This document shows, piece by piece, positions 20,413-44,850 of a DNA stretch of 64,000 nt. Where the stretch lies: the IMG/VR virus record IMGVR_UViG_3300033388_005265, positions 32,001 to 96,000 of that record; one strand, 5' to 3'. The translations under genes were made by a program, and so were the position numbers. The first letter of the stretch is position 1; each line of letters starts with the position of its first letter. The notes beneath the pieces were generated by a model. That model ran no database searches. It saw only the letters and a list, made by a program, of their open reading frames with translations, and was not told where the DNA came from. The DNA is from a virus.

Positions 20413-21444
20413 TTACGCCTTTATATTAATTAATGGTTTAACATGGTGCATTACATGCACAAGATCACTCTGAGCTTCCATAACCTTAAATGGATCTTTA
20501 TATGCAAGCTTTGATTCATCAAGAGTTCCTTTTTCTACTTTAGCTACAATATCGCTTCTTTTCATTCTATTTCTAAAGGCAGACATACTTAGTCTTTCTC
20601 TTATGACTGCACCGGTAATCTCGTCTCTTTTGCCTTCTTTGGCTTCTCTTCTGCCCATTAATCTTCCAGCTCCATGAGAGCTTGAGCATAGGCTATCAGG
20701 ATTACCTTTTCCTCTGACTATGAATGATCCATCTTCCATATTGCCTGGGATAACTCCCAACATGCCAACTTCAGCATGAGTAGCTCCTTTTCTATGAATC
20801 CATTCGCCATCTTTTAGATCTGCATGGTTATGATTACTATTTATAATTAATTTATCGTTTTTACGTATGAGCCAAGTTGCAAGCTTAACAGATAATGCTT
20901 TAGGTAATATCTTGCCAATAACACCTATAACTCTAGCAGCCATTTGTCTTCTGTTTTCAAGAGCAAATTCAAGACAGAAGTTAAGGTCAGTTATATAGTC
21001 CTTACCATCTTGAGAATTTACATCTAATGCATAGTGACCTTCTCTAGCCTTTCCTACACCAGATGCTGCTTTCATGTAGTGAGTAGCTGAAGAATGACCT
21101 ACATTTCTGCTTCCTGAATGGATAATAATCCATACATCGTCATTCTCGTCATAACCTATTTCTATAAAATGGTTCCCACCACCAAGCGTACACAGCTGTC
21201 TAAATCCACCTTTGTCATTAAACATTTCAACCATAAATGGAGTCGCAGCAGTATCCTTATATGCAGGCCATTTAGACTTCTTATCATTCTTATTGAATCC
21301 AGTAGGAATAGCTTCATATATAGCATCAAAGATTTCCTTCCTATAAGACAGGATATCTTCCTTTGCATCTTTTCTTCTTCTTATATCATCTTTGTGGTCA
21401 TCTGCTGATCCGAATGAACCTCCAAATCCTATATCCCATTCCAT
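20413..21444 (-). CDS. rtcB: RtcB RNA ligase, N-terminally truncated
   Basis: LGGGNHFIE, HSGSR, HRKGAT, SHGAGR present; N-terminal MPDxH and DIGCG Cys motifs absent. Confidence 0.85.
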   Translation of the reverse strand: MEWDIGFGGSFGSADDHKDDIRRRKDAKEDILSYRKEIFDAIYEAIPTGFNKNDKKSKWPAYKDTAATPFMVEMFNDKGGFRQLCTLGGGNHFIEIGYDENDDVWIIIHSGSRNVGHSSATHYMKAASGVGKAREGHYALDVNSQDGKDYITDLNFCLEFALENRRQMAARVIGVIGKILPKALSVKLATWLIRKNDKLIINSNHNHADLKDGEWIHRKGATHAEVGMLGVIPGNMEDGSFIVRGKGNPDSLCSSSHGAGRLMGRREAKEGKRDEITGAVIRERLSMSAFRNRMKRSDIVAKVEKGTLDESKLAYKDPFKVMEAQSDLVHVMHHVKPLINIKA

Positions 21445-21650
21445 TATCCATTGTCCTTTCCTTTACAGTGATCGCCTTTATTATAGCATGGTCCAGCTAA
21501 TGTATTGTGAGCTTCAGTACCACAGAGAACACACATAAACCGATCAGTATGATAGTGTGCATCATCAACCCTATCTGTTGGGATTAAGACGTAACCGGTC
21601 TTAATACATTTCATTTCTCTATTACATTTTAAACAATATGGAACAGACAT
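21444..21650 (-). CDS. zinc-ribbon protein
   Basis: CLKC...CVLC. Confidence 0.55.
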   Translation of the reverse strand: MSVPYCLKCNREMKCIKTGYVLIPTDRVDDAHYHTDRFMCVLCGTEAHNTLAGPCYNKGDHCKGKDNG

Positions 21651-22169
21651 TTAATATTCTCCAAAATGCAGCATATTATGACATATGCCACACATTAAGT
21701 TGCATTTTTCAACTTCTTCAAGTACTTCTACTCTAGTGTTATTCATCATTCCAGCAGTTATGTCAAATTTCTTTTCTTTTGGATCTCTATGATGAAAATC
21801 AAATCCAGCTGCATTTTTACCGTTATATTCAAGACTACATTCTATGCATTTGCTCCCTTTTAATTTGATAAGCTCTATTTTAAACTGTCTGTTTAGTTTA
21901 CGTTTTTCAGCATACTTTTCTTTACTTTCCTTTTTAACTCTTTCTTGGTTTTTTTCATACCAAGCTTTGCTTCGATTGTATCCAACTGGATATTTACGAG
22001 AACTATGTCCATTAATATATTCTTTTTGTCTTCCCCAGTTATCTATGCTTTTTGTCTTTTTTCCACAGCCACATTTACACTCAATTAATGGAGCATCTTT
22101 ATGCATCTGCTTAAATCTTCTTTTTTCGTTTTCGCTAGGTCTCTTATCGTTTCGCTTTTCTTCTAACAT
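21651..22169 (-). CDS. HNH homing endonuclease
   Basis: CIEC, FDFHHRDP, CNLMCGICH; N-terminal C.CGCG. Confidence 0.85.
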   Translation of the reverse strand: MLEEKRNDKRPSENEKRRFKQMHKDAPLIECKCGCGKKTKSIDNWGRQKEYINGHSSRKYPVGYNRSKAWYEKNQERVKKESKEKYAEKRKLNRQFKIELIKLKGSKCIECSLEYNGKNAAGFDFHHRDPKEKKFDITAGMMNNTRVEVLEEVEKCNLMCGICHNMLHFGEY

Positions 22170-22820: not shown

Positions 22821-23040
22821 CTCCTATTCTCCTCACAAGCCTAGCTATCTTTATGCTAGGTGTATTCTTTTCTATTTCTTTTACAAGTTTTCCAAGCACA
22901 CTTACTTTTTTCTTGAATGCTCTAAGCTCTTTTACTTCTTTTTCAAGTTTCTTATGTTCTACTGCTAATCTTTCATGTTTACTTTCTAATTCTGGATCTC
23001 TAAGATGTACTATCCAGGACACCCACAAGTTTTCACTATG
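22810..23040 (-). pseudogene. coiled-coil ORF with no clear start (probably 5'-truncated)
   Basis: Coding-like 3' half, but no SD/ATG; abuts a degenerate tRNA. Confidence 0.4.
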
Positions 23041-23042
23041 AT

Positions 23043-23111
23043 ATACGTAGCTGGTTTGACCCAGCAACCGTACGCTCTAAAGGCGTATGCTCTACATTGA
23101 GCTATACTTTA
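23043..23111 (-). pseudogene. degenerate tRNA (loop CT-TTA-GA)
   Basis: D arm GCTC/GAGC and anticodon stem TACGC/GCGTA intact; 6-nt T loop, mispaired acceptor, no CCA. Confidence 0.6.
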
Positions 23112-23159
23112 TCATTTGTGGTGATCTAGTTTTAGTCTTTTTATCGAGTAACAAGCTTC

Positions 23160-23260
23160 ATTTTAAAATCCCCACGTATTAACCATTGATACGACACCCC
23201 GTCATTCTCTATCTTTTATTTGGTAGGGGTGACCAGACTCGAACTGGCATTTCAAGTTTA
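23160..23260 (-). ncRNA. circularly permuted tRNA-like module (YrlA/Y-RNA-like topology)
   Basis: Order on minus strand: T arm GCCAG-TTCGAGT-CTGGT, CACCCC(T)-ACCA, linker, GGGGTG, D arm GTAT-CAATGGTTA-ATAC. Confidence 0.65.
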
Positions 23261-23520
23261 GTTTAGGGTACAGTGCCAATTACTCATACTAATTCCGATC
23301 TTAAGCTATAGGGCAATACATCAACGATGATTTTTATCACTACCAATTTGCCATTCATGGCTGCTTAGGTAGATCTGACAACAACGATAAGTTTATCCCA
23401 TATCTTTAACTTATAAAACTATTAACTTAACATCAAGCCTACAGACTGACATATGCTTTATCCAGGCAAGAAAGCGCATCTCGTCAGTCCCTCCACCATC
23501 CTCAGCTAAACGTTAAGGTC

Positions 23521-24279
23521 TTAACCTAACAGGTAATCTACTATTGACTTACCAACTTTCTTATCAACAATCTCGATGTCGTTTGCTCTTTGACGAGCTT
23601 TTTTAACACCACCGATAAGCTTATCTACTCTTCCGAGCATTGTGCTTTTCTCATGAACAGAGATCATACTACACCATTCTTCACGTGTATACTTTCCAAC
23701 TTTCTTGGTGTCATTCCAGGTATGGATCTGTGCAGGCAATGACTGTCCACCTTCACCTTCCTTAGGGAATGTAGGAGGTACGAGTACAGTATTCTGTATC
23801 TCTTTCTCATCCTTGAAAGTTTCTTCAGGATGCACTCTCCTTAGTACTCCGTCTCTTTGACCTTTATCTTCTTCCCAAGCAACTCCAGGTGCAAGAGTAG
23901 GAATCGAGTCTACAAGCTCTCTAACAATCTTAAGCTTTGACTCAAGGCCAAGGAGGAATGTAGCCGGCAGTCCTTCTGCAAGTACTTCTCCGTCAACAAC
24001 CAGATCTGCAACAGCATTCTGATTTGTAGCCTCTTTCTGAAGAACTACATCGTAGTACTTTGAGACCGGACCAAGGGCATAAGCAAGCTTACTAAGCACA
24101 GTATCGACAACATCACTCCTGTCTATTTCTCCGCCTTCATTTGCCTGTCTTACGTCATTAAACATAGCCAGGGTCTTAATGTGACCTTTGAAGTGATCTG
24201 CTCTCTTTGTAAATGTAGAGATTGCCTCCTCAGTAGTCTTCTTTGCAAGACCTGCACGATCTCCTTCTACTGCAAGTAG
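23521..24279 (-). CDS. conserved phage/bacterial protein of unknown function (recalled as DUF7873-like), native start missing
   Basis: NQNAVADLVVDG, LPATFLLGLE, PAQI, RV.KLI..VKKARQRAN. Frame stays open upstream of ATG 24165 to LLAVEG at 24279, then an in-frame TAA. Confidence 0.7.
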   Translation of the reverse strand, partial: LLAVEGDRAGLAKKTTEEAISTFTKRADHFKGHIKTLAMFNDVRQANEGGEIDRSDVVDTVLSKLAYALGPVSKYYDVVLQKEATNQNAVADLVVDGEVLAEGLPATFLLGLESKLKIVRELVDSIPTLAPGVAWEEDKGQRDGVLRRVHPEETFKDEKEIQNTVLVPPTFPKEGEGGQSLPAQIHTWNDTKKVGKYTREEWCSMISVHEKSTMLGRVDKLIGGVKKARQRANDIEIVDKKVGKSIVDYLLG

Positions 24280-42509: not shown

Positions 42510-42585
42510 TGTAGGCGGGCAAGATTTGAACTTGCGTCCTCCAGCTAAACCGCTGGCGCTCTACCGGACTGAGCTACCAACCTAC
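42510..42585 (-). pseudogene. tRNA-like element with 6-nt anticodon loop
   Basis: D and T arms normal; CCAGC-GGTTTA-GCTGG; no full CCA. Confidence 0.65.
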
Positions 42586-44772: not shown

Positions 44773-44850
44773 TGTAGGCATGGTAGGATTCGAACCTACG
44801 GCCCTTGGGTTTATGAGCCCAAGTTCTACCTCTGATATACACTGCCTACA
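44773..44850 (-). pseudogene. tRNA-Met/Ile(CAT)-like element with 8-nt anticodon loop
   Basis: TTGGG-CTCATAAA-CCCAA; good T arm; bulged acceptor, weak D stem, no CCA. Confidence 0.65.

What the first reader, a model, noticed from the sequence alone, without database searches (positions are those of the whole stretch)
23160..23510. Circularly permuted tRNA-like RNA with the Y-RNA (YrlA) topology
Seen on the minus strand, in order: a T arm with canonical TTCGAGT loop; acceptor 3' strand CACCCC(T) followed by exactly A-CCA; a ~20-nt linker; the matching GGGGTG; a D arm GTAT-CAATGGTTA-ATAC with the conserved GG. Flanks TTGAAAT/ATTTTAA can close a stem where the anticodon arm would be. The 250 nt upstream are also non-coding and structured (GACTGAC/GTCAGTC). 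Known: bacterial YrlA Y RNAs have this T-arm > acceptor > D-arm order and associate with Ro60/RtcB; two-piece tmRNA genes also place the 3' half first. Inference: a phage Y-like or new permuted tRNA-mimic RNA, possibly cut by RNase P into an aminoacylatable two-piece molecule.
Basis: partly seen in the sequence, partly recalled or inferred. Interest (0 to 1): 0.8.

Follow-up and report, generated by a model that had tools for sequence, protein, structure and literature searches.

The report
Phage tRNA-mimic RNA beside DUF7873
The flagged stretch is a real, conserved RNA domain shaped like a transfer RNA with its two halves in swapped order and no anticodon loop, and it belongs to a widespread, apparently undescribed RNA family that always follows one unknown protein gene (DUF7873) rather than Ro60, the partner of the only known RNAs of this shape.

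Summary
Observation confirmed. On the minus strand, 23268-23170 holds a T arm, a 3' acceptor strand followed by A-CCA, a 19-nt linker, the matching 5' acceptor strand, U8 and a D arm with GG. A helix closes it where the anticodon stem would be. A strict pattern scan finds this order once in 128 kb.

It is not chance. The same order lies within 700 nt downstream of DUF7873 genes in 60 of 73 distinct viral loci, 100 times denser than elsewhere. It also occurs in cultured phages of seven or more host genera and in bacterial chromosomes. All stems covary. A covariance model built without the window scores it 51.1 bits (E 7e-21), the best hit in its genome.

The topology is that of YrlA Y RNAs, but membership fails. 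Rfam YrlA gives no hit on the window and 29-38 bits (cut-off 69) on relatives. Ro60/TROVE is absent from the contig and from five complete phage genomes. The Ro-binding motif is absent. It is not a tmRNA and not a decoding tRNA. The RtcB 2 kb away is not a family feature (1 of 5 genomes).

An encoded NCCA (65 of 82 modules), a 7-bp acceptor and a tRNA-like leader suggest RNase P nicking; this is inferred. The DUF7873 fold matches nothing solved.

This scan has noted the same family before on other DNA (108 notes, 83 or more genomes).

The parts
23521..24165 (-). DUF7873 (PF25283) gene, the conserved partner gene. As called it is 214 aa and lacks about 50 N-terminal residues. Homology continues upstream to about 24285 but is broken by two in-frame TAA codons.
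   Evidence: Pfam E 3.6e-48. Relatives are 250-265 aa. N-terminus examined.
23444..23489 (-). 5' domain hairpin GACTGAC ... GTCAGTC with an inner ATGC/GCAT helix.
   Evidence: Pairing is kept through changes in L038 (GTTGAC/GTCAAT, ATAC/GTAT).
23381..23392 (-). Conserved ACTTATCGTTGT motif. The same 'TTATYG' motif occurs in other members of the family.
   Evidence: same motif in L026, L029, L030, L032-L035, L037.
23264..23268 (-). CCCUA, the likely 5' strand of the closing ('anticodon-stem') helix. It is followed by an unusual 15-nt spacer (23263-23249).
   Evidence: Family rule and swap control.
23232..23248 (-). T arm GCCAG-TTCGAGT-CTGGT.
   Evidence: Covaries with GCCGG/CCGGT in L038 and GTGAG/CTCAT in L040. 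Family covariation.
23221..23231 (-). 3' acceptor strand CACCCCT, discriminator A, CCA.
   Evidence: CCA follows the discriminator in 65 of 82 family modules.
23202..23220 (-). Linker that closes the acceptor stem; predicted to be excised. It ends in ..AUGA before position +1.
   Evidence: Family linkers are 6-93 nt with a conserved U(-3) R(-2) U(-1) leader.
23195..23201 (-). 5' acceptor strand CGGGGTG.
23176..23194 (-). U8 C9 and the D arm GTAT-CAATGGTTA-ATAC, with the conserved GG.
   Evidence: The D stem is fully compensated in L040 (GCTC/GAGC).
23170..23174 (-). UGGGG, the 3' strand of the closing helix, one nucleotide (G26) after the D stem.
23150..23259 (-). Extent of the match to covariance model R1 (family tRNA-like module plus the 3' motif AUUUUAAAAUGAAG).
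   Evidence: 51.1 bits, E 6.8e-21; best hit in the window and in the whole contig.
23123..23140 (-). Short period-6 tract AAG ACU AAA ACU AGA UC. It is the weak local counterpart of the family's NAG-N3 arrays.
   Evidence: Family signal z 10.7 at spacing 6.
23047..23107 (-). Second tRNA-like element in normal order: D arm, anticodon arm with loop CUUUAGA (anticodon UUA), T arm with a 6-nt loop, weak acceptor. It is part of the same conserved non-coding tract.
   Evidence: Rfam tRNA 42.8 bits, model positions 5-66. Conserved in L040 with loop CUCAAAA. Not called by ARAGORN.

Best explanation
The element is the tRNA-like head of a non-coding RNA of about 500 nt (about 23520 to 23020, minus strand). 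The RNA is encoded directly after a DUF7873 gene and, in this phage, is probably transcribed with it. It belongs to a widespread family of DUF7873-associated RNAs.

Shown:
- It forms a four-way junction of T arm, 7-bp acceptor stem closed by a linker, D arm, and an open helix in place of the anticodon stem that joins it to the rest of the RNA. This is a circularly permuted tRNA of the YrlA type.
- The gene-RNA pair is conserved across phages of many hosts.
- The pair also stands alone as a two-part cassette in bacterial chromosomes.

Inferred, with my odds:
- It folds into a tRNA L-shape (about 0.8).
- RNase P cuts at the 5' acceptor strand and the linker is trimmed back to the encoded CCA. 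This would give a nicked, two-piece tRNA mimic, as shown for M. smegmatis YrlA (about 0.5).
- The RNA works with the DUF7873 protein as a Ro60-independent ribonucleoprotein or autoregulatory pair. The protein would sit on conserved single-stranded tracts (period-6 NAG arrays in most members), and the tRNA-like head would engage some tRNA-binding enzyme or factor during infection (about 0.35).
For: - A strict scan gives one hit in 128 kb of window.
- The same order lies downstream of DUF7873 in Rhizobium, Vibrio, Klebsiella, Ralstonia, Gordonia, Arthrobacter, Rhodococcus and Pseudanabaena phages.
- 60 of 73 distinct IMG/VR loci carry it within 700 nt of the stop codon: 1.25 per kb against 0.012 per kb elsewhere.
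- RNAalifold on 58 modules predicts the T arm, acceptor and D arm, and all 16 pairs show compensatory changes.
- Model R1, built without the window or L040, scores the window 51.1 bits. Tandem-tRNA junctions reach at most 37 bits.
- On 26 sequences not in the seed, 99% of cells pair, against 65% when shuffled and 41-49% when slid. The covariation score is 0.985 against 0.25.
- The closing helix was not used for selection. It averages 4.5 bp, against 1.75 when partners are swapped.
- Within the window's own lineage the T stem, D stem and 5' hairpin change in a compensatory way.
- In Cytophagaceae and Aureispira contigs the cassette is flanked by unrelated cellular genes.
- For processing: NCCA is present in 65 of 82 modules, U8 in 81 of 82, and the leader resembles that of true tRNAs in the same loci. 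[quoted passage not shown]
- For a protein track: AG-AG spacing of 6 nt occurs 136 times against 62 +/- 7 expected.
Against: - I have no transcript, end-mapping, binding or processing data for any member.
- Folding energy of the window element is not better than shuffles.
- The window copy is atypical. Pair 1:72 is a C/U mismatch, the 5' strand of the closing helix lies 15 nt from the T arm, and the period-6 arrays are almost absent.
- Its DUF7873 gene looks damaged at the 5' end, so this copy of the pair may be decaying.
- The DUF7873 fold gave no match that suggests RNA binding.
- Synteny alone fits a purely cis-acting 3' UTR element equally well. Only 7 of 70 loci have a terminator-like site between gene and RNA.
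- An earlier check within this scan priced the ribonucleoprotein reading at only 22 in 100.
Confidence: 0.6

Rival explanations
1. It is a true Y RNA (YrlA) that is loaded onto the host's Ro60/Rsr during infection and tethers it to an effector such as PNPase.
For: The topology is the same. The Rfam YrlA model aligns end to end with module 2 of L029 and L034 and with the window's relative L040, at E 3e-5 to 0.01. YrlA RNAs are known in 22 Ro60-encoding phages (PMC4201824).
Against: All scores are far below the gathering score of 69 bits, and the window has no hit at E up to 10. TROVE is absent from the contig and from 5 of 5 complete phage genomes with the RNA. The GNCGAAN0-1G motif is absent from the window and occurs in 7 of 58 5' regions against 3.7 expected. 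The conserved neighbour is DUF7873, also in cellular genomes.
Confidence: 0.1
2. It is only a cis-acting 3' UTR device of the DUF7873 mRNA. RNase P cutting at the tRNA-like fold would define and protect the mRNA 3' end, as mascRNA does for MALAT1, with no trans-acting RNA and no protein-RNA particle.
For: The RNA always lies downstream on the same strand. Only 7 of 70 loci have a terminator-like site between gene and RNA, and none is seen in the window. The leader and CCA look like processing signals.
Against: The RNA is long (300-500 nt) and has conserved domains on both sides of the tRNA-like head, tandem modules in many phages and period-6 arrays. This is far more than an end-processing signal needs. 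In the cyanophages a strong terminator separates gene and RNA.
Confidence: 0.15
3. It is a decoy or sponge: a tRNA look-alike that soaks up a host tRNA-directed nuclease or other tRNA-sensing defence, or a tRNA-modifying enzyme. DUF7873 would act as helper or be unrelated.
For: It lies in the phage's tRNA and RNA-repair region, with RtcB, phosphoesterases and 22 tRNAs. In many phages it sits inside tRNA clusters. tRNA identity nucleotides (U8, GG, TTCRA) are strictly kept.
Against: There is no anticodon loop, which is the usual target of anticodon nucleases. The cassette also occurs in bacterial chromosomes outside any phage context. DUF7873 is not in PADLOC. There is no direct evidence.
Confidence: 0.1
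4. It is a two-piece tmRNA or a permuted tRNA gene that matures into a decoding, aminoacylated adaptor.
For: The acceptor-piece-first order with an encoded CCA is as in permuted tmRNA genes. The permuted-tmRNA model gives a weak local match of 13 bits.
Against: Pair 3:70 is G-C, not G-U. No tag frame or pseudoknots are found by ARAGORN or Rfam. A full D arm is present, unlike tmRNA. No anticodon loop can be rebuilt, because the 'anticodon stem' strands run on into other RNA domains in all members.
Confidence: 0.03
5. It is a chance juxtaposition or the decayed remains of tandem tRNA genes.
For: Tandem tRNA junctions do score with such models (caveat in PMC4201824). The acceptor sequence equals that of many phage tRNA-Leu(UAA) genes.
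Against: The position is syntenic and 100-fold enriched, all four helices covary, and no flanking tRNA halves exist.
Confidence: 0.02

Closest known systems
YrlA (Y RNA-like A, Rfam RF02553), above all the M. smegmatis form (Chen et al. 2014, PMC4201824; Wang et al. 2018, bioRxiv 10.1101/312249)
   Same: Both are circularly permuted tRNA-like four-way junctions: T arm, acceptor-like stem closed by a loop, D arm, and an open 'anticodon stem' that runs into the rest of the RNA. Both are encoded next to a protein partner gene and are found in phages as well as bacteria. M. smegmatis YrlA has a 7-bp acceptor, is cut by RNase P and receives CCA.
   Different: The neighbour gene is DUF7873, not Ro60/TROVE. 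There is no Ro-binding GNCGAA motif and scores fall below the Rfam threshold. NCCA is encoded in the gene in most members, followed by a linker of 6-93 nt, whereas most YrlAs have a short closed loop, no CCA and a 6-bp stem. The RNA is much larger (300-500 nt against about 110), often carries two modules, and has period-6 NAG arrays.
Two-piece (permuted) tmRNA genes of alpha- and betaproteobacteria and cyanobacteria (Rfam RF04321, RF01849, RF01850)
   Same: The gene order puts T arm, 3' acceptor strand and CCA before the 5' acceptor strand. The intervening segment is removed to give two base-paired pieces.
   Different: There is no G3-U70, no tag reading frame and no pseudoknots. A full D arm is present. 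The models give only 11-13 bits.
mascRNA/MALAT1-type tRNA-like 3' end elements and viral 3' tRNA-like structures
   Same: [quoted passage not shown]
   Different: Those elements are in normal, not permuted, order, and are eukaryotic or from plant viruses. Here a cut would leave both products base-paired.
Permuted tRNA genes of Cyanidioschyzon merolae and some algae
   Same: The 3' half of the tRNA is encoded before the 5' half.
   Different: Those mature through a circular intermediate into complete decoding tRNAs with an anticodon loop. Here no anticodon loop exists.

Membership tests
YrlA / bacterial Y RNA (RF02553) | Permuted order T arm > acceptor-like stem-loop > D arm, closed by a helix in place of the anticodon stem | tested here: met
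YrlA / bacterial Y RNA (RF02553) | Reaches the Rfam gathering score (69 bits) | tested here: not met
   The window has no YrlA hit at E up to 10. Relatives score 37.6, 37.1 and 28.8 bits.
YrlA / bacterial Y RNA (RF02553) | Encoded within about 4 kb of a Ro60/TROVE gene on the same strand | tested here: not met
   No TROVE in the 119-kb contig, which is 61% complete. None in 5 of 5 complete phage genomes with the RNA. The neighbour is DUF7873.
YrlA / bacterial Y RNA (RF02553) | Ro-binding motif GNCGAAN0-1G near the 5' end | tested here: not met
   Absent from the window tract. Present in 7 of 58 family 5' regions against 3.7 expected.
YrlA / bacterial Y RNA (RF02553) | Bound by Ro60/Rsr | not testable with these tools
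   Needs immunoprecipitation.
Two-piece tmRNA | G3-U70 alanine identity pair | tested here: not met
   Pair 3:70 is G-C in the window. G-U is rare at that position in the family.
Two-piece tmRNA | Tag reading frame and pseudoknots recognised by tmRNA models | tested here: not met
   ARAGORN finds none. Rfam permuted tmRNA gives 13 bits against 47, beta tmRNA 11.2 against 84.
Permuted decoding tRNA gene | A complete anticodon stem-loop can be rebuilt from the two halves | tested here: not met
   The strands of the closing helix continue into other conserved RNA domains, and no 7-nt anticodon loop exists.
DUF7873-associated tRNA-mimic RNA (family defined by this analysis and earlier notes of this scan; not in Rfam 15) | Lies downstream of a DUF7873 gene on the same strand | tested here: met
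   The T loop lies 277 nt after the stop codon at 23521. The family median is 169 nt.
DUF7873-associated tRNA-mimic RNA (family defined by this analysis and earlier notes of this scan; not in Rfam 15) | Matches a covariance model of the family built without it | tested here: met
   R1 gives 51.1 bits, E 6.8e-21, the best hit in the genome.
DUF7873-associated tRNA-mimic RNA (family defined by this analysis and earlier notes of this scan; not in Rfam 15) | 7-bp acceptor followed by an encoded NCCA, then a linker, with U8 and GG in the D loop | tested here: met
   6 bp plus a C/U mismatch, A-CCA, 19-nt linker, U8, GG. The relative L038 has 7 bp.
DUF7873-associated tRNA-mimic RNA (family defined by this analysis and earlier notes of this scan; not in Rfam 15) | Closing helix 3-5 nt before the T arm and 0-1 nt after the D arm | tested here: inconclusive
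   The 3' strand fits (G then UGGGG). The 5' strand CCCUA lies 15 nt upstream. The relative L040 fits the rule with GACUG/UAGUC.
DUF7873-associated tRNA-mimic RNA (family defined by this analysis and earlier notes of this scan; not in Rfam 15) | Period-6 NAG arrays in the 5' domain | tested here: not met
   Only one three-unit tract, and it is 3' of the module. The family signal is z 10.7. This feature holds for most members, not all.

The most novel reading that the evidence does not exclude
DUF7873 and this RNA form a previously unknown, Ro60-independent ribonucleoprotein that phages and some bacteria share. RNase P nicks the permuted tRNA head, and its CCA end is kept or rebuilt. The particle then uses the tRNA mimic to engage the tRNA machinery (a synthetase, a modification enzyme, EF-Tu or a tRNA-directed defence nuclease), while DUF7873 multimers read the six-base repeat track.
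Probability: 0.22. Interest if true: 0.9.

Novelty: new variant of a known kind. Interest (0 to 1): 0.72.

Why it matters
Permuted tRNA mimics were known only as Ro60-bound YrlA Y RNAs. This is the same design with a different, uncharacterised protein partner. The pair is conserved from jumbo phages of proteobacteria, actinobacteria and cyanobacteria to Bacteroidota chromosomes.

It would be a second class of tRNA-mimic particle. It would give a first functional handle on DUF7873. It would also offer a natural case in which RNase P and the CCA end may be used to build a two-piece RNA.

Several cultured phages carry it, so the predictions can be tested directly. The family is missing from Rfam 15, so these tracts are left blank in phage annotation.

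Tried and rejected
- **Group I intron or split tRNA:** I looked for the missing 5' half upstream and 3' half downstream. No matching acceptor strands exist, so I rejected this.
- **attP-type copy of a host tRNA 3' end:** rejected, because the matching 5' half and D arm follow it and the unit is conserved in lytic jumbo phages.
- **Exact-pattern scan of viral contigs with the T loop plus acceptor plus CCA:** it returned only ordinary tRNA-Leu(UAA) genes with the same acceptor. This was not informative for the element.
- **blastn of the tract against the phage collection:** no match.
- **DUF7873 function:** nothing was informative from the PDB sequence profile, Foldseek against PDB, VIA wide search (only generic helical matches, Z at most 8.7), BFVD, NCBIfam, PADLOC and PHROGs, or the ESM Atlas (only its own family).
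- **RtcB, Band-7 and Ro60 as family-wide partners:** found in 1 of 5, 1 of 5 and 0 of 5 complete phage genomes, so I rejected them as defining neighbours.
- **Genome-wide TAA recoding, to explain the broken N-terminus:** rejected, because TAA is the commonest stop.
- **Burroughs and Aravind 2016 (PMC5062991) and Sim et al. 2020 (PMC10870794):** neither could be read because they are not held. I cannot say how close they come to this family.

Full report
**What is there.** The window is part of a 119-kb IMG/VR viral contig, about 61% complete. Almost all genes are on the minus strand, along with 22 or more tRNA genes.

Between the stop codon of a 214-aa ORF (23521) and the next ORF (ATG at 22976) lie about 545 non-coding bases.
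- T arm GCCAG-TTCGAGT-CTGGT (23248-23232)
- 3' acceptor strand CACCCCT (23231-23225), then A and CCA (23224-23221)
- a 19-nt linker
- 5' acceptor strand CGGGGTG (23201-23195)
- U8 C9
- D arm GTAT-CAATGGTTA-ATAC (23192-23176)

ARAGORN and Rfam find no ordinary tRNA over it. Rfam gives only weak local matches of permuted-tmRNA models over the T arm and acceptor (13 and 11 bits), and no YrlA match at E up to 10.

My strict pattern scan for this order finds exactly one hit in both strands of the 64-kb window.

**Is it more than chance?** Folding energy does not say so (z -0.6 and -0.36). Comparison with other genomes does.

The upstream ORF is a DUF7873 protein (PF25283, E 3.6e-48). tblastn finds homologues in 74 phage records. 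I fetched the loci and scanned them. The same permuted order lies in the unannotated gap after the gene in phages of Rhizobium, Vibrio, Klebsiella, Ralstonia, Gordonia, Arthrobacter, Rhodococcus and Pseudanabaena. It often occurs as two tandem modules about 150-200 nt apart.

Among 80 IMG/VR loci found with a DUF7873 profile, 60 of 73 distinct loci have a module within 700 nt after the stop codon. That is 1.25 per kb, against 0.012 per kb elsewhere in the same loci on both strands.

The 82 distinct modules have 70 different acceptor sequences. U8 is present in 81, and CCA follows the discriminator in 65.

A closing helix was not part of the search criteria. It starts 0-1 nt after the D stem and ends 3-5 nt before the T stem. 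It averages 4.5 bp, against 1.75 +/- 0.13 when partners are swapped between modules.

RNAalifold on a MAFFT alignment of 58 modules predicts the T arm, the 7-bp acceptor across the linker and the D arm. All 16 pairs show compensatory changes.

I built covariance model R1 from that alignment, leaving out the window and its relative L040.
- It scores the window element 51.1 bits (E 6.8e-21), the best hit in the window and in the whole contig.
- Junctions of tandem tRNAs are the known false-positive class for such models (PMC4201824). They reach at most 37 bits.

On 26 matches outside the seed:
- 99% of cells pair, against 65% in shuffles and 41-49% with slid partners.
- The covariation score is 0.985 against 0.25.
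- The caveat is that this alignment is fitted to the model.

**The window's own lineage.** Close relatives of the protein (91% and 71% identity) come from contigs L038 and L040. The whole tract aligns with them.

| Feature | Window | L038 | L040 |
|---|---|---|---|
| T stem | GCCAG/CTGGT | GCCGG/CCGGT | GTGAG/CTCAT |
| D stem | GTAT/ATAC | contig ends here | GCTC/GAGC |
| Acceptor pair 1:72 | C/U mismatch | C-G | C-G |
| 5' hairpin | GACTGAC/GTCAGTC | GTTGAC/GTCAAT | not aligned |

So the window copy is a true, slightly atypical member. It has one module, a 15-nt spacer between the closing helix and the T arm, and a 5' hairpin where many members carry a first module or repeat arrays.

The tract also contains a second tRNA-like element in normal order (23107-23047; Rfam tRNA 42.8 bits over model positions 5-66). 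It is conserved in L040 but with a different anticodon: UUA here, CAA there.

**What it is not.**
- *Not a tmRNA.* Pair 3:70 is G-C, there is no tag frame, and a full D arm is present.
- *Not a decoding tRNA.* No anticodon loop can be rebuilt, because the closing-helix strands run on into other conserved domains.
- *Not shown to be a Y RNA.*
  - The Rfam YrlA model aligns end to end with relatives at only 28.8-37.6 bits against a cut-off of 69.
  - TROVE/Ro60 is absent from the contig and from five complete phage genomes with the RNA.
  - The GNCGAAN0-1G motif is absent from the window and not enriched in the family.
Only one of five complete genomes has RtcB, and there it is about 150 kb from the RNA. 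Band-7 is likewise present in 1 of 5.

**The partner.** DUF7873 homologues are 250-265 aa with many invariant residues. AlphaFold gives a confident model (pLDDT 90, pTM 0.79) of four long helices plus long beta hairpins. Nothing informative matches it in PDB or BFVD. It is absent from PADLOC, PHROGs and NCBIfam.

In the species-genome collection the gene occurs in Cytophagales, Saprospiraceae, Aureispira, Burkholderiaceae and other contigs. R1 finds the RNA directly downstream on the same strand in 25 or more of 47 loci. In two contigs I examined, the flanks are unrelated cellular genes. Gene plus RNA therefore behave as a self-contained two-part cassette.

**How it probably works.** Three points are shown: a permuted tRNA cloverleaf, synteny with DUF7873, and strict retention of tRNA tertiary nucleotides. 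The rest below is inferred.

The linker varies from 6 to 93 nt and is poorly conserved. Its first four bases are NCCA in 79% of modules. Its last three resemble the 5' leaders of true tRNA genes in the same loci (U at -3 in 70%, purine at -2 in 95%, U at -1 in 51%). With a 7-bp acceptor, this is what an RNase P substrate looks like. M. smegmatis YrlA, the one YrlA with a 7-bp stem, is cut by RNase P and receives CCA in vivo (PMC4201824; 10.1101/312249). I therefore expect a nicked two-piece tRNA mimic, at about even odds.

In most members the 5' domain carries NAG triplets at exact 6-nt spacing (136 AG-AG pairs at distance 6 against 62 +/- 7 expected, z 10.7). From general knowledge, this resembles the triplet-repeat sites of multimeric RNA-binding proteins such as TRAP or HutP. 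It suggests a protein track, and DUF7873 is the obvious candidate. The window copy has almost none of these repeats.

Only 7 of 70 loci have a terminator-like site between gene and RNA, and none is seen here. So the RNA is probably made from the same transcript. This keeps the purely cis-acting 3' UTR reading alive.

**Comparison and novelty.** The closest known family is YrlA. It has the same architecture, and it likely shares the processing shown for its M. smegmatis form. It differs in protein partner, size and accessory domains, and in the encoded CCA.

I found no paper that names DUF7873. I found none describing a permuted tRNA-like RNA in phages outside the Ro60 context. Rfam 15 has no family that reaches threshold on 13 such loci.

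I found the DUF7873 link independently. I then saw that this scan holds 108 notes on the same family in 83 or more other genomes, with the same verdicts. One note reports a later check that priced the ribonucleoprotein reading at 22 in 100 and names Burroughs and Aravind 2016 as nearest in print. I could not read that paper.

**Verdict.**
- The Y-RNA label is not supported as membership, but it is right as architecture.
- The element is a new variant of a known kind.
- It is interesting mainly as a member of a large undescribed RNA-protein family.

Noticed in passing
window 24310-24270 (minus strand): The DUF7873 gene is broken at its 5' end. In frame it reads ATG (24306) CAG CAC AAT ATA TAA (24291-24289) TAC CAT TAA (24282-24280) CTA CTT GCA..., that is MQHNI*YH*LLAVEGD, where relatives have ..KLHELLAVEGD. 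A 55-aa ORF (24397-24230) overlaps in another frame. TAA is the commonest stop in the window, so there is no general recoding. The cause could be decay, a frameshift fusion, an assembly error or local read-through; this is unresolved.
   Followed up: partly
window 23047-23107 (minus strand): A normal-order tRNA-like element with anticodon UUA (it would read UAA), a 6-nt T loop and a weak acceptor stem. It is conserved in L040 (3792-3853) but there has anticodon CAA. It lies in the same RNA tract as the permuted module, and downstream of a gene with two in-frame TAA codons.
   Followed up: partly
family loci L044-L123, 5' domains between the DUF7873 stop codon and the module: Arrays of NAG triplets at exact 6-nt spacing (for example CAG CGT CAG CCT TAG TCT CAG), usually inside a long hairpin closed by GGGnCA...TTGACCC. 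AG-AG distance 6 has z 10.7, and distance 12 has z 4.0.
   Followed up: yes
window 20413-22169 (minus strand): The RtcB ORF (343 aa) matches only Pfam profile positions 139-425 of 426. A 68-aa ORF (21444-21650) and an HNH endonuclease gene (21651-22169) lie directly upstream. The gene may be split or N-terminally replaced.
   Followed up: no
L036 2309-2518 (Microcoleus phage My-WqHQDG): A HEARO RNA (RF02033, 129 bits) lies downstream of this phage's DUF7873 gene. A T arm plus acceptor hairpin lies just before it, but my scanner found no D arm.
   Followed up: no
L003 6159-6547 (IMGVR_UViG_3300009008_000004): A full-length standard tmRNA (RF00023, 102 bits) is encoded about 2.5 kb downstream of the DUF7873-RNA pair in a 183-kb viral contig.
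   Followed up: no
L001 5468-5688: In this viral contig the permuted module (57.7 bits) lies 1.9 kb after the DUF7873 gene, behind an array of 11 tRNA genes. It carries a linker of about 137 nt inside its acceptor stem.
   Followed up: partly
window 42510-42585 and 44776-44846 (minus strand): ARAGORN calls a tRNA with an abnormal two-base anticodon at 42510-42585. Rfam calls a weak tRNA (31.4 bits) at 44776-44846 that ARAGORN does not report.
   Followed up: no
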